From: an uncultured Gammaproteobacteria bacterium
GTDB taxonomy: Bacteria; Patescibacteriota; Microgenomatia; Daviesbacterales; UBA10151
Direction of reading: 5' to 3'
Assembly (NCBI GenBank): GCA_964523905.1
Contig: CAZFYQ010000005.1
Coordinates: 10,299-74,298, forward strand
Length of the DNA stretch: 64,000 nucleotides
Each line of letters opens with the position of its first letter. Position 1 is the stretch's first letter. A program made the translations under genes and the position numbers. Positions 20,335 through 50,921 of the stretch are shown in pieces. The notes under the pieces were generated by a model, which saw only the letters and a list, made by a program, of their open reading frames with translations, did no database searches and was not told the DNA's origin.

Positions 20335-20781
20335 ATGGCTGCAACTCCAGAAACATATCAAGAAACACGTGCACATGATTTGGGCTTCAAGGATGAAAAG
20401 GGACAGCCGGTGCTGGGCGTGGGTAAAAGATATACAGAAGATAGTCTTTATCGTTTTATGTATTTGGCTGAAGAGGCTCTCAAACCCGCAAGAATCGTAG
20501 TTACCCTAGGTCTCAAAGAAATAGACACCCCACATGGTGAAGATAAATTACAGTTTACTACTATTACTAAAATTGAGGGCATTTCAATAGAAGAAGCGGC
20601 TTCAAGATTAATGGTGCTAAGAGAAAGTGGACCAAGTTGGGCATTTAAACCAATTCGAAGGACTGGTGACCAAATTGATTATGCGTCTACTACAATTGGT
20701 CCCAATGATACATTAGCTCTATTTAACTTCGATACTGAAGAATTTACACACCTTGTGCCAGCAGCAACAACTCTAAAATAG
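20335..20781 (+). CDS. hypothetical protein
   Basis: 148-aa ORF. GC is noticeably higher than its neighbours. A REP-like element follows immediately. Confidence 0.45.
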   Translation: MAATPETYQETRAHDLGFKDEKGQPVLGVGKRYTEDSLYRFMYLAEEALKPARIVVTLGLKEIDTPHGEDKLQFTTITKIEGISIEEAASRLMVLRESGPSWAFKPIRRTGDQIDYASTTIGPNDTLALFNFDTEEFTHLVPAATTLK

Positions 20782-20820
20782 CTTCCAATCCCAGGGGTTG
20801 AATACGTTCAAACCTCAGGA
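20780..20820 (+). repeat. REP-like 41-nt element, copy A
   Basis: agcttccaatcccaggggttgaatacgttcaaacctcagga, with central palindrome TTGAA-TACG-TTCAA. It is 40/41 identical to copy C. Confidence 0.65.
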
Positions 20821-20874
20821 TTTTTATTAGCCAAACTTTTATGATGATTTTCACCGGACTTAGGCGCTAAATAT

Positions 20875-20903
20875 TTGACAGTTATCCTATAAGCTGATAG
20901 AAT
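20875..20903 (+). promoter_or_regulatory. sigma70-like promoter TTGACA-N17-TAGAAT upstream of the 20913 ORF
   Basis: ttgaca (20875-20880), 17-nt spacer, tagaat (20898-20903). Confidence 0.4.
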
Positions 20904-20912
20904 CGGGGCAAT

Positions 20913-21338
20913 ATGGCAGAACGTGAGCGAACAGGTTCAAAATTATCTCAGGACACAAACCCGGCAGCTGAATTAAGACAGAGGATTAAAGAGGCTGCTT
21001 TAGCTAACCCGGAAATTGTGGCCTTGGCTGCTGATGCTTGGTTTGAAGGAGAATCTACAATTGAGGTAGGGAACGGAGGAGATAGATTAACTATTGATTC
21101 AGAACCACACCCTTTTGGTATTGGTCGAGTACTAAGAGTGACCAATGTAATTGACACCATGAATGGGTATAGACAGATGGAGCTTTTCGTGGCCACAAAC
21201 AACCGACCAAACAGTACATATGATTCAGTAATATTTAGCAAACCCGGACTTCCAGATGAAACTGATAATCCAGCTGCAATAGAAGGTGGGAATGATATAT
21301 TATTTGAAATGGAACGATTCCAACCTCGCGAACAGTAA
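20913..21338 (+). CDS. hypothetical protein
   Basis: 141-aa ORF bracketed by REP-like copies A and B in direct orientation. Confidence 0.45.
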   Translation: MAERERTGSKLSQDTNPAAELRQRIKEAALANPEIVALAADAWFEGESTIEVGNGGDRLTIDSEPHPFGIGRVLRVTNVIDTMNGYRQMELFVATNNRPNSTYDSVIFSKPGLPDETDNPAAIEGGNDILFEMERFQPREQ

Positions 21339-21343
21339 ATAGC

Positions 21344-21384
21344 AGCTTCCAACCCCGGGTGTTGAATACGTTCAAACCCCAGGA
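21344..21384 (+). repeat. REP-like 41-nt element, copy B
   Basis: agcttccaaccccgggtgttgaatacgttcaaaccccagga. It is 37/41 identical to copy A and sits 2 nt from the tRNA-Val 3' end. Confidence 0.65.
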
Positions 21385-21386
21385 TG

Positions 21387-21458
21387 TGGATACTGTAGGG
21401 ATTGGACCTACGACCTCCTCGATGTGAACGAGGCGCTCTACCACTGAGCTAAGTATCC
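21387..21458 (-). tRNA. tRNA-Val (anticodon CAC)
   Basis: Reverse complement gives GGATACT-TA-GCTC-AGTGGTA-GAGC-G-CCTCG-TTCACAT-CGAGG-AGGTC-GTAGG-TCCAATC-CCTAC-AGTATCC-A. Confidence 0.85.
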
Positions 21459-38336: not shown

Positions 38337-38935
38337 TACTGTTTTGCTTTAACCCGAAAAACTGCTGATAAAACAATGTGTTTTTTCGGATTTAGGCCGT
38401 CAGCATCAATTTCTTCAATTTCTGAGGCCTGATCCAATACTTTAATACTTTTTGCCCTTGATTGCAAAAATTTTGATAAAAAAAGATTCCCCCCAATGCT
38501 ACCCGGGATTCCAATAAACTCTGCTGTTGATAATCCTGTTACATCAAGATATTCACAGAATTTGCCAATACTAACTCCGGATTCTACCTCTACCATGGCC
38601 TCTTCTACTCCGATGCCAAACTTTGACACTTTACCCTTGACTGAGACTGTTTTAATATTTTTAGTACGGTTTTTAATCACCAATCCTTTAAATCCAAAAT
38701 CAGAGATTAAAATTTTACTGCCAGTGCCAAAAACAAAAATTGGCAAATTTAATTCCCTAGACATGGTTATAATTTTTACCAGTTCTGAGGTAGTAAAACT
38801 AATAAAAAATAAATCCGCCGGCCCCCCGGCTCTTAAAGCTGTATACTCTTTTAAAGGCTCGTTAAATTTAAACCGATCCTTCCCGAAATAATCAACTATC
38901 AATTTGTATTTGTTATCCACGCCCCACCCTCTCAA
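38336..38935 (-). CDS. murB: UDP-N-acetylmuramate dehydrogenase (MurB)-like, unusually short (199 aa)
   Basis: FAD-binding domain motifs YTALRAGGPADLFF, LPIFVFGTGSKILISD and GIPGSIGGN. The ORF then ends after a MurB-like C-terminal tail (IVLSAVFRVK) with no central substrate-binding domain. Confidence 0.55.
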   Translation of the reverse strand: MRGWGVDNKYKLIVDYFGKDRFKFNEPLKEYTALRAGGPADLFFISFTTSELVKIITMSRELNLPIFVFGTGSKILISDFGFKGLVIKNRTKNIKTVSVKGKVSKFGIGVEEAMVEVESGVSIGKFCEYLDVTGLSTAEFIGIPGSIGGNLFLSKFLQSRAKSIKVLDQASEIEEIDADGLNPKKHIVLSAVFRVKAKQ

Positions 38936-40109
38936 TTACCTCCTTATCCGACCAGGGAATTTCCTTTTTCCCATCCAAATTCATAGATTTTTCATGCCCC
39001 TTACCAAATACACCCACAATATCACCTTTTTTTGCCAATTTATTGATGGCCAGATCAATTGCCCCTTCCCTGTCTTCAATCACAAAGAAATTAATTCCAT
39101 CTTTGGCTCCGGCTTTTTTAGCTCCTTGGGTGATTTGTTGGTTAATTTCTTTGATCTGACCACGCGGATCCACAGCGGTTACTATTACGACATTAGCCAG
39201 CTTCATCGCAATTTCCCCCATCGGGATTCTTTTTCCCGGATCTCTGTCTCCTTCAGCACCAATAATGGCAATCACTCTACCGGAAGTCTGAGTACGCAGT
39301 GTTTTTAAAGCATTTTCCAAAGCATTGGGAGTATGAGCAAAATCCACTATTACTTTAACTCCTTTTTTGGCTTTTACTTCTTCCATCCGGCCGGTTAAAC
39401 CACTAAAGTTTTCCAAAGCTTTTTGGGCAATCTGACGATTTATTCCTAATACAAAACTAACTGCCATGGTGGCCAAAGCATTTTCCAAATTATAATCTCC
39501 GGAAATTTTTAGGTTTAATTTCAAATCTTTTTGATTAAAATCTCCTTTATCTAAACTAAAAGTAATGATTTTTCCCTTAATTTGGGCAATTTCTTTAATA
39601 GAATAATTGACTACCGCAGTTTTAGCATTTTCCGTAAGTTTCAATTTGGTTTTAACATAATTTTCAAAGGTTTTATGATAATCCAAGTGTTCTTGAGTAA
39701 TATTAGTAATTACCCCCACTTCGAACTTAATTCCGGCAAAACGGTGTTGGTCCAATCCATGAGAAGTCACTTCCAAAACCATATATTCATCACCATTTTT
39801 CACTGCAGCATTTAGAAACTGCTGGATCATAAACGGGCTGGGTGAAGTCACATGAAACCCGGTGTCATATTCTTTTCCGGCAATTACAGCATTAATCGTA
39901 GACACCATTGACACCTTTTTCCCAGCCGCCTTAAGCACTTGGTAAATCATGTTGGTCGTAGTAGTCTTACCATCAGTGCCAGTAACCCCAATAATCTTGA
40001 TCTTACTAGCTGGGCTCCCATATCGCAGATTAGCAATTGCAGCCTTAGGCCGATGATACAAATCATTAATAACCTCCTGAGACAAAAACGAACGTATTGT
40101 TTTCTTCAT
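38913..40109 (-). CDS. Mur ligase family protein (MurE-like), short form
   Basis: IIGVTGTDGKTTTTNMI P-loop, VLEVTSHGL and NITQEHLDYH motifs. It is 398 aa and follows ftsI in dcw order. Confidence 0.6.
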   Translation of the reverse strand: MKKTIRSFLSQEVINDLYHRPKAAIANLRYGSPASKIKIIGVTGTDGKTTTTNMIYQVLKAAGKKVSMVSTINAVIAGKEYDTGFHVTSPSPFMIQQFLNAAVKNGDEYMVLEVTSHGLDQHRFAGIKFEVGVITNITQEHLDYHKTFENYVKTKLKLTENAKTAVVNYSIKEIAQIKGKIITFSLDKGDFNQKDLKLNLKISGDYNLENALATMAVSFVLGINRQIAQKALENFSGLTGRMEEVKAKKGVKVIVDFAHTPNALENALKTLRTQTSGRVIAIIGAEGDRDPGKRIPMGEIAMKLANVVIVTAVDPRGQIKEINQQITQGAKKAGAKDGINFFVIEDREGAIDLAINKLAKKGDIVGVFGKGHEKSMNLDGKKEIPWSDKEVIERVGRG

Positions 40110-40171
40110 TGAAGCTAAATTATATCAGAATCTATTGTTTTAATCTGCATCGTGTGAAATAATTTTATTGA

Positions 40172-40762
40172 ATGAAAAATACTGAAAGATTGATAGAGAT
40201 ATTAGGCCTGATTGGTATTCCACTACTGGGATCGACGTTACTAATAAATCTCCTTGCTCTTAATATCGCTCCATATGTAGGCTTATCAATCCTTTTTGGG
40301 ATCAGTACAATTATTAAAACAAAGAAATGGTCAACATATACAAAATTACTTGTAATAATCTTGGCACTATTTATATTCAATATAACCCCCTATTTCCGAC
40401 CAGGGGACTATACAATCTTTGCTGGTGGGGCTGTGCTATTTGGATGCATCAATCAGTCTCCTAACTCTTTAGGATTAGGATGGCCAGCAGCATATGTAAA
40501 ATATTCACTTGAAAGAGGAACCATTTTAGTTGGTTCATCTAGTCTTAAATCTAACTGTGAATATAAAAAAATTGATACAGGGACATTTTTTCCACAAAAT
40601 CCCCAATGGTTAATTTTTGATGTTCTTTTCTCACTTTCATGGTTACCTTTATTCTATAGTATTTTTAAAGGGGGTTCTAACACCAAACTTATTTACTTTC
40701 TGTTAAGTCCTTTGTTTATAATTGTTTTAATAAAAACAATATTCCTCTTCCATATATTATAA
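40172..40762 (+). CDS. hypothetical polytopic membrane protein
   Basis: 196 aa with about 5 TM helices. It is on the opposite strand inside the dcw cluster. Confidence 0.4.
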   Translation: MKNTERLIEILGLIGIPLLGSTLLINLLALNIAPYVGLSILFGISTIIKTKKWSTYTKLLVIILALFIFNITPYFRPGDYTIFAGGAVLFGCINQSPNSLGLGWPAAYVKYSLERGTILVGSSSLKSNCEYKKIDTGTFFPQNPQWLIFDVLFSLSWLPLFYSIFKGGSNTKLIYFLLSPLFIIVLIKTIFLFHIL

Positions 40763-40793
40763 TTTTCGCGCCAATAAGTGGCTAACCTAATAA

Positions 40794-40835
40794 TTTATTC
40801 TGTGGGGGCGATTTTGTAGTAGTTAAATAGTTGTC
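40794..40835 (+). repeat. 42-nt direct repeat copy 1: duplicate of the ftsI 3' terminus (copy 2 at 42574-42615 is the actual ftsI 3' end)
   Basis: tttattctgtgggggcgattttgtagtagttaaatagttgtc versus tttattctgtgggggcgattttgtagtagttaaataattgtc, 41/42 identical. Copy 2 encodes ...QLFNYYKIAPTE* on the minus strand. Confidence 0.75.
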
Positions 40836-40876
40836 AGCTTCCAACCCCAGGGGTTGAATACGTTCAAACCTCAGGA
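40836..40876 (+). repeat. REP-like 41-nt element, copy C, 20 nt downstream of the transposase stop
   Basis: agcttccaaccccaggggttgaatacgttcaaacctcagga. Confidence 0.65.
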
Positions 40877-40895
40877 AATAAGCCTAAAAGAATTC

Positions 40896-41567
40896 TTAAA
40901 TCAAATGCCTGATTTGCGCTAAAGTTCTCTGGTATTCAGCCTGATCGAAAACAAACTCCTTATATTTATCCTCGTTTCCTATTAAACCTAAGATTAAATC
41001 ACTATTAATGAACTGGTAAACTCCTGAGCTCTTTTTTATGTAGTTTTTATATGAAGACCAAATATAATCTTCTAAACTATCTATCTTTACAAGGTAGTCG
41101 GTGGATGGATTCAAATGTATATACCTACTAACATGTAGCAGTTGTTCATCCGTAACAATTCTGACTCCCTTAAACATTGGTTGAAATAATGGGCCGCTCC
41201 TTTCAGATTTAATATTGAAATATTTGGCATATCCATTTTGTAAATTACTGATAAATTTAGCTATACCCTTTTCACTTATTTGTTTTAGGAGAAAATGAAA
41301 ATGATTATTCATTAAGCAGAAAGCCAAAATTTTTATATGAATATCACCTTCCTTCTGTAGACCAGCAAAAATCTTTTCCCTATCCTCTCTGGGAATTTTT
41401 TTAAAATGCGAAAAACTAACCGGGGTATTTTGAAAACGATAATAATCTATTAACTCAATAAAGCGTTGGAAATCTCTTGGTGTCGAAAAAATGGGTAAAC
41501 GAGCAACTCCTCTATTAAATACATGATAAATTTGATCCTGAGCTAGCGGTGTGCTCCTGTAAGGCAT
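40896..41567 (-). CDS. IS200/IS605-like Y1 (HUH) transposase, RAYT/COG1943-like
   Basis: N-terminal YHVFNRGVARLPIFSTPRDFQRFIELI, HUH motif NNHFHFLL and catalytic-Tyr region SRYIHLNPS (RAYT Y-I-H-x-N-P). Start chosen at the ATG at 41565-41567; the ORF track extends to 41690 through REP-related sequence. Confidence 0.65.
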   Translation of the reverse strand: MPYRSTPLAQDQIYHVFNRGVARLPIFSTPRDFQRFIELIDYYRFQNTPVSFSHFKKIPREDREKIFAGLQKEGDIHIKILAFCLMNNHFHFLLKQISEKGIAKFISNLQNGYAKYFNIKSERSGPLFQPMFKGVRIVTDEQLLHVSRYIHLNPSTDYLVKIDSLEDYIWSSYKNYIKKSSGVYQFINSDLILGLIGNEDKYKEFVFDQAEYQRTLAQIRHLI

Positions 41568-41588
41568 TAATTCAATCTTATCCTTAGG

Positions 41589-41621
41589 TTGGAAGCTAGT
41601 CAACACCGGGTGTTGGAAGCC
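41589..41621 (-). repeat. inverted partial REP copies in the transposase 5' flank
   Basis: ttggaagct (41589-41597) and caacaccgggtgttggaagcc (41601-41621) are the reverse complement of the REP 5' half (agcttccaaccccgggtgttg) with 3 changes. They are inverted relative to copy C. Confidence 0.5.
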
Positions 41622-41679
41622 AAAATAATTCTCTGTAATTTGTAAGATTATAGGTTTTTGAGTATAATTTGCCCTTAAT

Positions 41680-42573
41680 ATGATTGACAATTTAGCAGAC
41701 CTTCCAAGAACTGAAAGAGACGGTATCTTTATTGATTACACAATCAGTGATCAAAAAGTAGTAACTCTAGTAAGAAGCTCTATAAATGAAACCGTTATGC
41801 ACGGGTATAACCAACTCCGAGATTGGGAACCTGAAGATAGAATAGAATCAAATTGTCCTTTATATCGTGTAGTAAATGCAGAGCAATCAACAGGTAGTTT
41901 AGACCAAATGATCCGCGTTGGTACGGAATCACAGAGAATTGCACTAGCTGTCTTAGAATCTTATGGACTTAATTTAGATTCACCTGATAATCTAAGCGAT
42001 TACAATGAGGCCAGAGGTCGAGAAAAATTGACTTTTCGCTCTCAATTAGTTGTGGGATTATCTTTTACTCGTCTAGCATTCTACGAAAATCACCCACCAA
42101 CTGCAAAATATGCAGAATGGATGGCTAATTTCTGGGTGCCATTGAGCGACACTGAAACTAAGAAGAGCACCGACGAAAAAGCATATCAAACTCTGCACCA
42201 GATTGCCTCCATTGTTCCTCCTGAGCTAATACAAATGGCTAATGAAGCTGATTTAGCTTTACCTGAAGGACTTCTTAAACATAGGTTCGGTCCTGATTTA
42301 AGCAATGACGAAAGAATTCAATTTGCCAAGTTCCTTTTTGATAGATATCTTTGGTGGGAAGACTCTAGAGGCTCTAGTGAAAGAAAAAGAATTTTTATCA
42401 AAGAAATAGGTATTCCAGCAGCAATAACCGGTAATATCCCCCAAGATCGAAAAAAAGATGAATTAATCAGCAGATTTGGTGGACTAATTGAGGTAGCAAA
42501 AATGTTTAATACACATTTTATTATATTTAGAGAGCGTCACGGATATTCTGTTTCTGAGAATATTTCTACCTAA
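41680..42573 (+). CDS. hypothetical protein (cargo of the transposase island)
   Basis: 297-aa ORF divergent from the transposase. Its stop is 1 nt from the ftsI stop on the opposite strand. No recognisable family. Confidence 0.5.
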   Translation: MIDNLADLPRTERDGIFIDYTISDQKVVTLVRSSINETVMHGYNQLRDWEPEDRIESNCPLYRVVNAEQSTGSLDQMIRVGTESQRIALAVLESYGLNLDSPDNLSDYNEARGREKLTFRSQLVVGLSFTRLAFYENHPPTAKYAEWMANFWVPLSDTETKKSTDEKAYQTLHQIASIVPPELIQMANEADLALPEGLLKHRFGPDLSNDERIQFAKFLFDRYLWWEDSRGSSERKRIFIKEIGIPAAITGNIPQDRKKDELISRFGGLIEVAKMFNTHFIIFRERHGYSVSENIST

Positions 42574-42574
42574 T

Positions 42575-44284
42575 TTATTCTGTGGGGGCGATTTTGTAGT
42601 AGTTAAATAATTGTCTGGCGATTTCAAAGAAGGTTGGAGCGGCTGTGTCAGCTCCAAAGATTGAGGCTGTGGGCTGATCATAGCGAACTAGGATGACAAA
42701 TTTCGGATCATCAGCCGGGGCAAATCCCACAAATGAGGCAATGGTTTTAGTGGGATCATAATGGCCAGCCACTGGAATTTGCGCAGTCCCAGTTTTTCCG
42801 GCAATCTTAAAGTTTCCTACTCCACCATGTGTTTTATACCAACTAGCTTCTCCCTTATCAACTGCTTGCACCATCATTTCTGTGACCACTTTGGCAGTGT
42901 CTGGAGTGACCACTGAGCGGATTACCTTGGGTTTAATTACAAAAGTACTACCATCGCCTTTGATTTCTTTAACAATATGCGGCTCCATTAAATTACCGCC
43001 ATTGGCAAGCGTGGATATCGCGGTAACCATTTGGATCGGAGTAACGGCAATTCCCTGGCCAAAAGTAGCAGTGGCTAAGTCAATTTCATGCCAATCTGCT
43101 TTGGGTCGAATACTGGTATCAGCCCCGTCTTGCAAATCAATATTAGAGGGTTGGCCAAAACCATAATTTTGAATATAACTATATAATTTATCCACACCCA
43201 GTTTTTTGCCGGTAAACACCATTCCGGTGTTATCCGAATGAATAATTACATCAGTCATCGTAGTATCTGGGAAATATTTATTATCCCAGGTTCGGATATC
43301 ATAATCAGCCACACGGACCGGTCCGGCACAATTATCACAAATAGTATCTGGAGTGACTAATTTCTCATTTAATGCCGCCGCCATCACCAGTACCTTAAAA
43401 GTAGAACCAGGCTCATAAGTATCTGCAACTACAGAATCTTTAAAATATTCTTTGGGATATTCAGTATAATTTCCAGGATCATAGTTAGGATAGGCTGCCA
43501 AAGCCAAAACTGCCCCGGTTTTAGGATTCATTACCACAGCTGAGGCTGATTTTGCTCCATATTTTTCAATACCAGCTTTTAAATTCTGCTCAACAATAAA
43601 CTGCACAGAGCGGTCAATATTAAGCTGTAAATCTTTTCCGTTTTTAGCATCGTTACTTAAGAAATTGCCAATTAAAATCGGTAACCCAGAGGCATCAATC
43701 TCATGCCTAAGCAGTCCCGAGCTGCCCTTAAGCTCGCCGTCATAGTACCCTTCCACTCCAAAATAACCCTTGCTTACGCTTTTGGCATCTGCCCCGACAA
43801 ACCCTAATATATGAGCTGAAGAAGATCCTTCCGGATAAAATCTACTGCTGCCTTGTTCAAAACCAATGCCTGGCAGTTTTAGAACTTCAATGGCTTTTTT
43901 CTGATCCGGAGTAATTTGTCTCATCAATACCACCCAGAATAGATCTTGAGACAATTTATTAATTAAGTCCTTGGCGAGACTATCCTGATCCTGATCCGCA
44001 GTAGCCAGTAGTTTAGCCAAAGCATAACCGGTATTAACGGTTTGTGCTTTAGTTAATACTTTTGGCTGGCCAAAAAGTAAATAGGAGGGGTTGGAAGATG
44101 CCAAAATAGAACCATCACTAAAATAAATCCGGCCTCTTAAAGCCTCTACTTTGGTGTCCGAAAAATGTTGCCCTTCGGCCTGAACCTGCAAAAAATCAGC
44201 ATTAACAATTTGCCAAAAATATAATCTGGCTAATATAGCAAGAAAAAAGACTAGAAAAAACGCTTTAATCCAAAATATCCGCAT
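42575..44284 (-). CDS. ftsI: peptidoglycan D,D-transpeptidase FtsI / PBP2-like class B penicillin-binding protein
   Basis: SxxK (GSTFKVLVMAAAL), SxN (HSDNTG) and KTG (AGKTGTAQ) motifs, plus an N-terminal TM anchor. Confidence 0.9.
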   Translation of the reverse strand: MRIFWIKAFFLVFFLAILARLYFWQIVNADFLQVQAEGQHFSDTKVEALRGRIYFSDGSILASSNPSYLLFGQPKVLTKAQTVNTGYALAKLLATADQDQDSLAKDLINKLSQDLFWVVLMRQITPDQKKAIEVLKLPGIGFEQGSSRFYPEGSSSAHILGFVGADAKSVSKGYFGVEGYYDGELKGSSGLLRHEIDASGLPILIGNFLSNDAKNGKDLQLNIDRSVQFIVEQNLKAGIEKYGAKSASAVVMNPKTGAVLALAAYPNYDPGNYTEYPKEYFKDSVVADTYEPGSTFKVLVMAAALNEKLVTPDTICDNCAGPVRVADYDIRTWDNKYFPDTTMTDVIIHSDNTGMVFTGKKLGVDKLYSYIQNYGFGQPSNIDLQDGADTSIRPKADWHEIDLATATFGQGIAVTPIQMVTAISTLANGGNLMEPHIVKEIKGDGSTFVIKPKVIRSVVTPDTAKVVTEMMVQAVDKGEASWYKTHGGVGNFKIAGKTGTAQIPVAGHYDPTKTIASFVGFAPADDPKFVILVRYDQPTASIFGADTAAPTFFEIARQLFNYYKIAPTE

Positions 44285-48981: not shown

Positions 48982-49047
48982 GACTATATCACGAAGTCAT
49001 ACAGGAAGCGAAGCGACTATATCACGAAGTCATACAGGAAGCGAAGC
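48982..49047. repeat. perfect tandem direct repeat, 2 x 33 nt, plus a 9-nt third partial unit
   Basis: gactatatcacgaagtcatacaggaagcgaagc occurs at 48982-49014 and 49015-49047, followed by gactagatc. It lies between the recO start and the stop of the DUF4012 gene. Confidence 0.85.
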
Positions 49048-49049
49048 GA

Positions 49050-50921
49050 CTAGATCCCAAATTTAATTTCTTCATCACTGGTTAGGTTTAAATCAGCTTT
49101 GGTAAAAGCGCCGTTTTTGATGATGTAATGAAAGTCTTTGGCGCCGGGCTGTTTTTGGATTAACAGCTGATATTGGCCTTTTGGCTGGTAGGGAATTTGG
49201 TATTCAAATTCCAGTTTTCTGGTATTGCCCGGCCTCACTTGGATAAAGGCATCAAAGACAGTTTTCCCCAGCTCATCAAAAGTGTGCACTGCATCTTCCG
49301 AGCCTTTGGAGGAAATTAGTTTACTACCGGCTGGAACATAGACTCTGACATAATCACGATTAATTCCATTTAACCAGGTGGCAAAGGCTTTGGCATTTTT
49401 ATATTCAATAGTGATTTTTTTAGTCACTTTACCACCAGAAATATTAATTTCCTGAGTGACTGTTTGATCAACATATAAATTAGACTTCCCCCCAGCAAAA
49501 TTAGAATCATTAATCGCCAGATAATCTCCATTATAATTTTGAATTTGACCAGTCCAGTTTAGTTTGGACAATGCCGCTTCTAAATTAGCATCATGCATAT
49601 AAAACAGCACATGCTTTTCATTGGCTAAGGTAGCTAAAGTTTCGATCAGGGCTGGTAGTTTAGCAACATCACTGCCTAATGAATGAGATAGAATTTGTTG
49701 CATCAAAACGCCCAGCACAGCCTTGCGATCTGCCTGACCCTTGGCAGCAATTTCCGCATAGGATTCCAACTCATAAATTACGTTAGGACAACTACATCTT
49801 TGATCAATTTTATCCGAATAAGTAGTACCATTAACATCAATCGGTCCGGTAATACCGATTAGCTCCTCCACTACCTGGGTATCAATATAAATAATTCCAT
49901 CAAATGGTAAGCCTTGACCAAGCAAACTATACATTGTTTCAAATTCTTTGGCCGAAGTTGGTACATCCGGAGATAAATTAGAATCGCGCATACTCCAAGC
50001 CGAACGTGTCTTACCATCAGCTTCCGGCAAGTATTTTACAATCGGAGCCGGAGGAGTTAGGGGACAAATTTTCTTTTGACATACTTGCAGCAATTTTTCA
50101 TCCAAACGGTAAATATCATCGGATGATGTAGCGCTAACCTGGCCGTTACTTAGCTGCATGGTAGCATAGGCTGTCATAAACCCACCAGTGGCCCTAATTT
50201 CTTTGTCATTTTGGAAAAGCAGTAAATAATTTTTACTGGAAGGAATTCCTAGCGCTCCCGGAGCCAATCTTAAAGCATCTTTACCCTGTCCAACTGCCAC
50301 TCCAGCTCCCAAAATAAAGTTTTTGGCTACTTCAATATTTTGACGGACATTTTTGCCCCCAATTTTATCAGGATACTTTGTCGTATCAATTCCTTTGACA
50401 TCATCAGCCCCTTTTTGGAAATTAGCCGCCACTTTATCCAAAATCGGCACTGTTTTATCCAAAATCTTTAGTCCTTGTGAAATACGATCCGGTCCGGATT
50501 TAGGATGCCCATCAAATCCTAGCTCGGCCTTACTAGGAGCTAAATTGTCGAAGATAGTAGTTAAACCAGTTAAATCCGCCACCCCACCAGACACCAACCC
50601 TTGGACATCAGAATAATATCCACCGGCAATTGGTACAATTTTTAGCCAAATTAGAAAAGTTAAGGCAAAATTTACTTGTTGCAATCCACCTTTGGTAGCA
50701 TTAGCTTCATTTCTGATCTGATCAAAATTTTGAGCCTTATAAGCTTCTACCAAACTTTTTCCATGAGCAGATACTTGCTTAAAACCTAAGTAAATAAATA
50801 TTGAAGGAATAATCAAGGCAATTAGTAAAACCACCAGCACTCTCACTAAATTCTTTTTAAAAGCTGAGGGCTTTTTTTTACTAAAACTTTGTTTTTCTAG
50901 TCTTTTGTTTAAATTAATCAT
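49050..50921 (-). CDS. DUF4012 domain-containing protein (secreted, polysaccharide-locus associated)
   Basis: N-terminal TM helix. FQNDKEIRATGGFMTAYATMQLSNGQ matches the DUF4012 core (FQNNAEIRxTGGF). It overlaps the downstream sugar transferase by 4 nt. Confidence 0.7.
   Translation of the reverse strand: MINLNKRLEKQSFSKKKPSAFKKNLVRVLVVLLIALIIPSIFIYLGFKQVSAHGKSLVEAYKAQNFDQIRNEANATKGGLQQVNFALTFLIWLKIVPIAGGYYSDVQGLVSGGVADLTGLTTIFDNLAPSKAELGFDGHPKSGPDRISQGLKILDKTVPILDKVAANFQKGADDVKGIDTTKYPDKIGGKNVRQNIEVAKNFILGAGVAVGQGKDALRLAPGALGIPSSKNYLLLFQNDKEIRATGGFMTAYATMQLSNGQVSATSSDDIYRLDEKLLQVCQKKICPLTPPAPIVKYLPEADGKTRSAWSMRDSNLSPDVPTSAKEFETMYSLLGQGLPFDGIIYIDTQVVEELIGITGPIDVNGTTYSDKIDQRCSCPNVIYELESYAEIAAKGQADRKAVLGVLMQQILSHSLGSDVAKLPALIETLATLANEKHVLFYMHDANLEAALSKLNWTGQIQNYNGDYLAINDSNFAGGKSNLYVDQTVTQEINISGGKVTKKITIEYKNAKAFATWLNGINRDYVRVYVPAGSKLISSKGSEDAVHTFDELGKTVFDAFIQVRPGNTRKLEFEYQIPYQPKGQYQLLIQKQPGAKDFHYIIKNGAFTKADLNLTSDEEIKFGI

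What the first reader, a model, noticed from the sequence alone, without database searches (positions are those of the whole stretch)
40794..42615. HUH (IS200/RAYT-like) transposase island inserted between murE and ftsI, bounded by a 42-nt duplication of the ftsI 3' end
Seen in sequence: the last 42 nt of ftsI including its stop (42574-42615, minus-strand coding ...QLFNYYKIAPTE*) recur 41/42 identical at 40794-40835, 1.74 kb away and outside any gene. Between the two copies lie a REP-like 41-nt palindrome-containing element (40836-40876), a minus-strand ORF with HUH motif NHFHFLL plus YIHLNP catalytic-Tyr region (IS200/IS605 Y1, RAYT/COG1943-like), and a divergent 297-aa ORF of unknown function. 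Inference: this is a relatively recent insertion into the otherwise syntenic dcw cluster. The long flanking direct repeat is unusual for IS200-type elements, which make no target duplication, so an att-like or recombination-mediated capture is suggested. REP/RAYT systems are best known from Proteobacteria, so one in this AT-rich, CPR-like background would be noteworthy.
Basis: partly seen in the sequence, partly recalled or inferred. Interest (0 to 1): 0.8.

Follow-up and report, generated by a model that had tools for sequence, protein, structure and literature searches.

The report
RAYT-type transposase unit beside ftsI
A single-strand-DNA (HUH) transposase gene with hairpin repeats on both sides sits between the cell-division genes ftsI and murE of a Microgenomates (candidate phyla radiation) bacterium; the element type is already known, two other genomes carry it at the same place, and a 45-base copy of the ftsI end marks a recombination joint at the edge of one hairpin repeat.

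Summary
It is 45 nt, 44/45 identical (40791-40835 vs 42571-42615). The right copy is the true ftsI 3' end.

The minus-strand ORF (40896-41567, 223 aa) is a Y1 HUH enzyme:
- Pfam Y1_Tnp scores above the gathering cut-off.
- Its motifs are NHFH, FQ and YIHLNP.
- The best structural match is E. coli TnpA-REP (4er8).

Two more REP-A copies lie at 20.8 and 21.3 kb. This is the known REPtron/TIRtron layout (subclass 2.1, also called Group-1 RAYT or TIRYT). Homologues are abundant in Microgenomates.

The "recent insertion of a transposase island" reading is only partly supported. The two closest RAYT relatives with context (L094, L095) carry the same unit directly after ftsI, without ORF297, ORF196 or any duplication. 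Three closer relatives keep only REP-like hairpins there.

The 45-nt relic touches the outer boundary of REP-A to within 1 nt. I read it as the scar of an illegitimate joint, probably HUH-catalysed, between two versions of the ftsI-murE spacer. Verdict: a new member of a known kind, of moderate interest.

The parts
40896..41567 (-). Y1 HUH enzyme of RAYT/TIRYT type (223 aa). HuH motif NHFHFL, FQ motif, catalytic-Tyr motif YIHLNP, C-terminal WSS tail.
   Evidence: Pfam PF01797 31.3 bits against cut-off 23. NCBIfam REP_Tyr_transpos 40.9 bits, below its cut-off of 80. Alignment A2 fixes the start and shows the motifs invariant. AlphaFold model pLDDT 84; best PDB match 4er8_A, E=5e-5, TM 0.71.
40837..40876 (+). 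REP-A, the repeat downstream of the gene, pointing inward. Hairpin CAACCCC-A-GGGGTTG, spacer AATACG, half-site TTCAAACC, then TCAGGA.
   Evidence: Inverted-repeat pair I1. nhmmer E=4.6e-10. Nearly identical in L094 and L095.
41581..41620 (-). REP-B, the repeat upstream of the gene, pointing inward. Hairpin CAACACC-C-GGTGTTG, spacer ACTAGC, half-site TTCCAACC, then TAAGGA.
   Evidence: Its stem differs from REP-A by a change on both arms (C-G to A-T). The same variant sits upstream of the gene in L094 and L095.
40791..40835 (.). Relic copy of the ftsI 3' end (antisense on the + strand). It ends ...GTTGTC directly against REP-A.
   Evidence: It keeps the ancestral CTA Leu codon seen in relatives.
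42571..42615 (.). Functional copy: the last 41 coding nt of ftsI including the stop, plus 4 nt. The first 3 nt are the ORF297 stop codon.
41680..42573 (+). ORF297, an orphan protein of unknown function, transcribed away from the RAYT gene and converging on ftsI (stop codons 1 nt apart).
   Evidence: No Pfam, NCBIfam, PHROG or PADLOC hit. One homologue at 37% identity among 1.8 billion representatives. The AlphaFold model is unusable at pLDDT 40. A promoter-like site lies at 41640-41668.
40172..40762 (+). ORF196, a hydrophobic orphan ORF. It is lineage-specific and lies outside the direct repeat.
   Evidence: No family hits. Absent from all related loci.
42575..44284 (-). ftsI (class B penicillin-binding protein).
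   Evidence: Pfam Transpeptidase and PBP_dimer. Relatives at 82-53% identity.
38913..40109 (-). murE.
   Evidence: Pfam Mur_ligase_M and Mur_ligase_C.
20780..20821 (+). Dispersed REP-A copy that overlaps the TAG stop of ORF148.
21344..21385 (+). Dispersed REP-A copy, 5 nt after the ORF141 stop and abutting tRNA-Val.

Best explanation
What it is. The region holds a REPtron/TIRtron. This is a single gene for a RAYT-type Y1 HUH single-strand DNA endonuclease/ligase (subclass 2.1 of the TnpA-Y1 family, also called Group-1 RAYT or TIRYT). It is bracketed by two inward-facing 40-nt cognate sites, REP-B and REP-A, and each site is a short GC-rich hairpin followed by a half-site that resembles the hairpin's 5' arm.

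How it works (inferred from family knowledge). The enzyme binds these hairpins on single-stranded DNA. It cuts beside them, forming a 5'-phosphotyrosine link, and rejoins the cut end to another 3'-OH. That activity would explain the two extra REP-A copies elsewhere in the window.

Where it sits. The unit is a long-standing, or site-preferring, occupant of the ftsI-murE gap in part of the Microgenomates. It is not a fresh insertion.

What is recent. One illegitimate joint lies exactly at the outer edge of REP-A. DNA ending 41 nt inside ftsI (...GTTGTC-3') was joined to the 5' end of REP-A. This fused two alternative versions of the spacer: ftsI, ORF297, REP-B, RAYT, REP-A on one side, and ftsI-end, 28 nt, ORF196, murE on the other. 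The 45 nt shared by both parents are therefore present twice. The copy attached to ftsI stays functional and the other is a relic.

Most likely mechanism (inferred). HUH strand transfer, combined with homologous recombination in a flanking conserved gene, that is, homology-facilitated illegitimate recombination.
For: Enzyme identity. The motifs match Table 1 of PMC6006769 for subclass 2.1.

Cognate flanking repeats:
- The inverted pair in the window.
- The same hairpin-plus-half-site layout on both sides of homologues down to about 37% identity, with stems that differ yet stay complementary.
- 39 of 61 gene flanks carry a perfect GC-rich hairpin of at least 6 bp, against 9% of control windows.
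- REP-A is nearly identical over about 35 nt in the window, L094 and L095, although their FtsI proteins are only 54-70% identical.

Dispersal: two more copies in the window.

Residence at this locus:
- L094 reads ftsI, REP-B, RAYT, REP-A, murE.
- L095 reads ftsI, REP-B, RAYT, REP-A.
- REP-like hairpins follow the ftsI stop in L086, L089 and L092.

The joint:
- The relic ends within 1 nt of the conserved REP-A 5' end.
- The other repeat boundary falls 4 nt after the ftsI stop, exactly where related genomes start to differ. Two parental versions would predict that.
- The one mismatch fits an allelic difference.
- E. coli TnpA-REP joins any single-stranded 3'-OH ending in C to a cleaved REP in vitro (PMC8266576), and the relic ends in C.
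- Homology-facilitated illegitimate recombination is an established route (PMC3240628 abstract).
Against: - No close relative (above 90% identity) was available, so neither parental version has been seen directly.
- The cleavage site of this enzyme class is unknown. The 3'-C rule comes from a distant Group-2 enzyme.
- RAYT identities do not track FtsI identities. Shared position may therefore reflect repeated targeting rather than inheritance.
- The REP-like hairpins in the nearest relatives belong to other sequence classes.
- REP copy number is low: 4 in 64 kb, and mostly only the two flanking copies in other loci. Active REP spreading is therefore weakly supported.
- The left junction (relic against REP-A) is not covered by the independent Logan contig.
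Confidence: 0.5

Rival explanations
1. A 1.74-1.78 kb mobile island (REP-A, RAYT, REP-B, ORF297) recently inserted as one unit into the last 41 nt of ftsI. Either a 45-bp target duplication arose from widely staggered cuts, or the island used an att-like site that restores the gene end.
For: - The repeat brackets exactly these genes and is 44/45 identical, so it is young.
- The nearest FtsI relatives (79-82%) lack RAYT and ORF297 in this gap.
- Non-congruent RAYT and FtsI identities hint at horizontal movement, with repeated landing behind ftsI.
Against: - Y1 enzymes are not known to make target duplications (family knowledge).
- The island carries no integrase.
- ORF297 lies outside the inverted repeats and is never linked to RAYT elsewhere.
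- L094 and L095 carry the unit at the same place with no duplication.
- None of about 80 other RAYT loci shows a comparable host-gene duplication.
Confidence: 0.2
2. Campbell-type integration. A 1,780-bp circle carrying one copy of the 45 nt, perhaps excised from a sibling chromosome, recombined with the resident ftsI end by homologous recombination. The element is then flanked by the homology and remains excisable.
For: - The geometry is exactly what a single crossover gives.
- The relic/REP-A junction has the form of a circle junction.
- A circle plus an empty site could also produce the Logan contig, which spans almost exactly one unit and breaks in the repeats.
Against: - 45 bp is near the lower limit for RecA-dependent exchange (general knowledge).
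- The circle would first need an illegitimate excision.
- No circular junction reads are available.
Confidence: 0.12
3. Patch model. All genes were already in place, and a 45-nt copy of nearby sequence was captured as filler DNA at a RAYT nick on the outer edge of REP-A, through template switching or capture of a short nascent strand.
For: - The junction is precise at the REP-A boundary.
- HUH enzymes accept foreign 3'-OH ends (PMC8266576).
- A 6-nt ACCTAA microhomology lies near the other junction.
Against: - The microhomology is out of register by 3 nt and is not significant.
- The model does not explain why the patch starts 4 nt after the ftsI stop.
- It does not explain the mismatch.
Confidence: 0.1
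4. Assembly artefact. The island, or a separate small molecule, was threaded into the chromosome through a shared 39-mer.
For: The source is a metagenome-assembled contig. The longest exact shared stretch is only 39 nt.
Against: - The two copies differ at one base, and each has unique junction sequence that must exist in reads.
- A second assembly of raw reads reproduces 40847-42600 exactly and breaks where a real repeat predicts.
- Common assemblers use final k-mers longer than 45 (general knowledge).
Confidence: 0.05

Closest known systems
TIRtron / TIRYT (Di Nocera et al. 2013, PMC3733652) = TnpA-Y1 subclass 2.1 (Quentin et al. 2018, PMC6006769) = Group 1 RAYT (Bertels et al. 2017, PMC5581495)
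   Same: - Motifs NH[YF]H, FQ and Y[IV]HLNP.
- Length of about 220-240 aa with a C-terminal tail carrying a conserved serine motif (WSS here).
- One gene copy flanked by inverted repeats, some of them partly self-complementary.
- The repeats form only small families elsewhere in the genome.
- Signs of horizontal movement.
   Different: - The repeats lack the GGGGWSAS motif reported for many TIRYT repeats.
- They have a conserved hairpin-plus-half-site design.
- The host is a candidate-phyla-radiation lineage that those surveys did not cover.
- The position behind ftsI recurs.
- Quentin et al. found no REP-like structures beside subclass 2.1 genes.
E. coli REPtron (TnpA-REP with REP/BIME; PDB 4er8; PMC3333891, PMC8266576)
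   Same: - Best structural match.
- An HUH/Tyr enzyme flanked by inverted hairpin repeats that also occur elsewhere.
- Cleavage beside the hairpin and strand transfer to foreign 3'-OH ends offer a mechanism for the joint seen here.
   Different: - Only 13% sequence identity.
- No 5' GT[AG]G foot on the repeats.
- Hundreds of REPs in E. coli against 4 in this 64-kb window.
- NCBIfam equivalog score below its cut-off.
IS200/IS605 insertion sequences (IS608, ISDra2)
   Same: - Y1 HUH fold.
- Hairpins near the ends.
- No target duplication expected.
   Different: - The Y motif is Y---NP rather than Y---Q.
- The HuH middle residue is F.
- The end hairpins are inverted relative to each other.
- There is no tnpB.
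- Only a single copy is present.
Integrative islands that duplicate the 3' end of their target gene (tRNA- or gene-end att sites)
   Same: A direct repeat of a gene's 3' end flanks accessory DNA and keeps the gene intact.
   Different: - No tyrosine or serine recombinase is present.
- Only one instance is seen.
- One repeat copy abuts an HUH recognition site.

Membership tests
Y1 HUH transposase superfamily (Pfam PF01797) | HuH motif and catalytic Tyr, with a score above the Pfam gathering threshold | tested here: met
   NHFHFL and YIHLNP are invariant in 24 sequences. The score is 31.3 bits against a cut-off of 23.
Y1 HUH transposase superfamily (Pfam PF01797) | TnpA-like fold | tested here: met
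   The model has pLDDT 84. The top PDB hits are 4er8, ISDra2 TnpA and IS608 TnpA.
TnpA-Y1 class 2 / subclass 2.1 (TIRYT, Group 1 RAYT) | Signature Y---NP, with NH[YF]H, FQ and Y[IV]HLNP; about 238 aa; C-terminal tail with a conserved serine motif | tested here: met
   Motifs read from alignment A2 and compared with Table 1 of PMC6006769. The comparison was by motif only; the authors' profiles were not run.
TIRtron | Gene flanked by terminal inverted repeats | tested here: met
   The two 40-nt arms are 80% complementary. The feature recurs in homologous loci.
TIRtron | GGGGWSAS motif in the repeats (seen in many but not all TIRYT repeats) | tested here: not met
   The repeats read GGGGTTGA and GGTGTTGA.
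REPtron / RAYT in the strict sense | Flanking REPs with a 5' GT[AG]G foot | tested here: not met
   No GTAG or GTGG lies at either end of the element.
REPtron / RAYT in the strict sense | Cognate REPs dispersed through the genome in many copies | tested here: inconclusive
   Two extra copies occur in 64 kb. The rest of the genome was not available. Other loci mostly show only the flanking pair.
REPtron / RAYT in the strict sense | NCBIfam NF047646 equivalog cut-off | tested here: not met
   40.9 bits against a cut-off of 80.
REPtron / RAYT in the strict sense | Enzyme binds, cleaves and rejoins its REP as single-stranded DNA | not testable with these tools
   This needs biochemistry. The only support here is conservation of the sites.
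IS200/IS605 insertion sequence | Y---Q motif, HuH with V or I, several near-identical copies, often a tnpB gene | tested here: not met
   The motif is YIHLNP and the HuH is HFH. The window holds one copy. ORF297 has no OrfB or TnpB hit.
Integrase-driven integrative element | A tyrosine or serine recombinase inside the repeat-bounded segment | tested here: not met
   The segment holds only RAYT and ORF297, and neither has a recombinase domain.

The most novel reading that the evidence does not exclude
The RAYT unit is an autonomous element with a preference for the 3' flank of ftsI. It would move between distantly related Microgenomates, land behind ftsI each time, and be able to carry cargo (ORF297). 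The 45-nt duplication would then be the footprint of a previously undescribed HUH-mediated integration that restores the end of an essential gene.
Probability: 0.12. Interest if true: 0.7.

Novelty: new member of a known kind. Interest (0 to 1): 0.4.

Why it matters
How RAYT-type enzymes move DNA in vivo is still unknown. [quoted passage not shown]

This locus is a natural junction in which foreign DNA meets the exact outer edge of a cognate hairpin site. It resembles a fossil of a strand-transfer event. It would give a concrete substrate for testing cleavage-site choice in the largest and least studied RAYT subclass.

The work also shows three further things:
- This subclass is common in small candidate-phyla-radiation genomes.
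- Its flanking sites are more conserved than neighbouring essential proteins.
- It repeatedly accompanies ftsI.

Otherwise the element is of a known type, and the cargo genes have no assignable function.

Tried and rejected
- ORF297 as a TnpB-like partner: rejected. It has no domain hits and a single cysteine, it lies outside the inverted repeats, and its only homologue sits in an unrelated context.
- ORF297 function from structure: the model has pLDDT 40 and was not searched.
- Extending the repeat with gaps or microhomology: not significant.
- Similar host-gene duplications beside other RAYT genes: none among about 80 loci. A 31-nt repeat in L014 looks unrelated, and L094 has no relic.
- REP motif in viral contigs: one partial match inside a coding region, judged to be chance.
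- REPs as intrinsic terminators: no terminator-like sites at 40000-42900.
- Exact-protein look-ups for ftsI, murE and ORF196 to recover the flanks in the same sample: not on record.
- The genome-collection scan with FtsI returned only one locus, at 66% identity.
- Rfam: only tRNAs in the window.
- Base composition: the island is only mildly AT-richer than its surroundings, which is not diagnostic.


Full report
**1. Observation**

The window carries a direct repeat of 45 nt, at 40791-40835 and 42571-42615, 44/45 identical. There is no third copy and no match in 100 shuffles. Gapped alignment of the flanks does not extend it.

The right copy is the genuine 3' end of ftsI (42575-44284, minus strand). 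It covers the last 13 codons and the stop, plus 4 nt. Those 4 nt include the TAA stop of the converging ORF297.

The only mismatch is a synonymous Leu codon, CTA in the left copy and TTA in ftsI. Relatives carry CTA, so the non-coding left copy has the ancestral state.

An independent assembly of raw reads (Logan, SRR9179562) reproduces 40847-42600 exactly. It stops 30 nt into the right repeat and inside the REP element, which is the behaviour expected of a k=31 graph if both repeats exist in two contexts.

**2. The HUH gene**

Alignment with 23 homologues places the start at the ATG at 41567 (MPYRS...), giving 223 aa.
- Pfam Y1_Tnp is significant: 31.3 bits against a cut-off of 23.
- The NCBIfam RAYT equivalog is hit but below its cut-off: 40.9 against 80.
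- The motifs NHFH, FQ and YIHLNP, plus a C-terminal WSS tail, are invariant in the alignment. They match subclass 2.1 in Table 1 of Quentin et al. 2018 (PMC6006769).
- That paper equates subclass 2.1 with Bertels' Group 1 RAYTs and probably with Di Nocera's TIRYTs.
- An AlphaFold model (pLDDT 84) finds E. coli TnpA-REP bound to a REP hairpin (4er8) as its best solved match: E=5e-5, TM 0.71. ISDra2 and IS608 TnpA follow.

**3. The flanking repeats**

The gene lies between two 40-nt elements in inverted orientation, REP-A (40837-40876) and REP-B (41581-41620).

Two more REP-A copies lie at 20780-20821 and 21344-21385. Each sits at or just after the stop codon of a small orphan ORF, and the second abuts tRNA-Val. 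A profile search finds exactly four copies in the window.

Each element is a 7-bp GC-rich hairpin, a short spacer, and a half-site that resembles the hairpin's 5' arm. REP-A and REP-B differ in the stem by a change on both arms.

The same design faces the gene from both sides in homologous loci down to about 37% protein identity. The stems differ in sequence but remain complementary. Of 61 gene flanks, 39 hold a perfect GC-rich hairpin of at least 6 bp, against 9% of control windows from the same loci.

Between the window, L094 and L095, REP-A is almost identical over about 35 nt, although their FtsI proteins are 54-70% identical. These are therefore conserved recognition sites.

They lack the GT[AG]G foot of canonical REPs and the GGGGWSAS motif of many TIRYT repeats. 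In other loci, few copies occur beyond the flanking pair.

**4. Taxon and abundance**

FtsI relatives that carry a source name are Daviesbacteria or other Microgenomates. The RAYT search gave 5,616 significant homologues. The best 120 are 55-72% identical, apart from the window's own protein at 100%, and those that carry a source name are Patescibacteria, Daviesbacteria or Levybacteria.

The REP/RAYT papers I could search do not mention these phyla.

**5. The locus in relatives**

The surrounding dcw cluster is syntenic, but the ftsI-murE gap varies:

| Locus | FtsI identity to window | Content of the ftsI-murE gap |
|---|---|---|
| L092 | 79% | 87 nt holding one REP-like hairpin plus half-site |
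| L086, L089 | 82%, 81% | REP-like hairpins, then fragments of a short-chain dehydrogenase gene |
| L005 | 66% | Intact dehydrogenase gene plus a 163-aa ORF |
| L094 | 69% (RAYT 68%) | REP-B (overlapping the ftsI stop), RAYT, REP-A, then murE |
| L095 | about 54% (RAYT 72%, the closest RAYT found) | REP-B, RAYT, REP-A, then the contig ends |

The decisive loci are L094 and L095, the two closest RAYT relatives whose context could be fetched. In both, all genes lie on one strand. Neither has ORF297, ORF196 or a duplicated ftsI end. L003 (RAYT 66%) has the unit elsewhere in the genome.

So the unit's place behind ftsI is shared by three divergent genomes. RAYT identities do not follow FtsI identities. 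The shared place may therefore be old residence with a slow RAYT clock, or repeated landing at a preferred or permissive site.

**6. The 45-nt repeat**

Relative to L094, the window has extra DNA at both outer edges of the unit. ORF297 lies between ftsI and REP-B. The relic, a 28-nt spacer and ORF196 lie between REP-A and murE.

Three details constrain the origin:
- The relic ends (...GTTGTC) within 1 nt of the conserved 5' end of REP-A.
- The other end of the repeat lies 4 nt after the ftsI stop, which is where related genomes begin to differ.
- The single difference looks like an allelic difference.

Together these fit a joint between two versions of the locus that share ftsI but differ downstream. 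One version carried ORF297 and the RAYT unit. The other carried ORF196.

The illegitimate junction would sit at the REP-A edge, with a homologous crossover in a flanking core gene. Homology-facilitated illegitimate recombination of this kind is established (PMC3240628).

HUH chemistry offers the joining step. E. coli TnpA-REP, covalently bound to a cleaved REP, is resolved by any single-stranded 3'-OH ending in C (PMC8266576). The enzyme-catalysed step and the two parental versions are inferred and have not been observed.

**7. Rivals**

- Unit insertion with a long target duplication or att-like site: about 0.2.
- Campbell-type integration of a 1.78-kb circle: about 0.12.
- A 45-nt filler patch at a RAYT nick: about 0.1.
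- Assembly artefact: about 0.05.

None can be excluded without reads or close relatives.

**8. Cargo**

ORF297 is full length. It is an orphan, with one homologue in 1.8 billion representatives. It has no domain hit in four libraries and no usable structure model. ORF196 is a hydrophobic orphan.

**9. Verdict**

The element is a known kind (REPtron/TIRtron) in a lineage where it has not been described in the papers searched. The "recent island insertion" reading is only partly right.

The junction at the REP edge and the recurrent ftsI association are the points worth following up. Interest is 0.4.

Noticed in passing
window 20335-21458: Two orphan ORFs (148 and 141 aa, with no hits in Pfam, PHROGs or PADLOC) are each followed by a same-orientation REP-A copy. 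The first REP overlaps a TAG stop and the second abuts tRNA-Val. The layout looks cassette-like.
   Followed up: partly
window 48982-49056: An intergenic tandem repeat with a 33-nt unit, 2.3 copies and 97% matches, lying between two minus-strand genes.
   Followed up: no
L003 5921-5958 and 6685-6718: The two REP variants are swapped relative to the gene: A-type upstream and B-type downstream, the opposite of the window, L094 and L095. This suggests the gene was inverted by recombination between its inverted repeats.
   Followed up: no
L037 2341-7801: A 43%-identical RAYT homologue sits directly after mreC, mreD and a PBP2-type penicillin-binding protein gene, and before a 370-aa ORF that looks DprA-like by eye (no domain search was run). 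This is another class B PBP gene immediately upstream of a RAYT.
   Followed up: partly
L086 8838-9629; L089 8825-9628; L005 9717-10457: The short-chain dehydrogenase gene between ftsI and murE is intact in L005 but broken into two pieces in L086 and L089, which looks like a decaying gene in the same variable gap.
   Followed up: no
L005 (CAZJNI010000002.1): The record is titled 'uncultured Gammaproteobacteria', yet it carries a Microgenomates-like dcw cluster whose FtsI is 66% identical to the window's. The taxonomic label is probably wrong.
   Followed up: no
window 42571-42577: The stop codons of the converging ORF297 and ftsI are 1 nt apart. ORF297's stop lies inside the duplicated 45 nt, which suggests a TAA microhomology at that junction.
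   Followed up: partly
L094, L095 versus window: RAYT identities (72%, 68%, 72%) do not track FtsI identities (54-70%). The 35-nt REP-A core is better conserved than either protein.
   Followed up: partly
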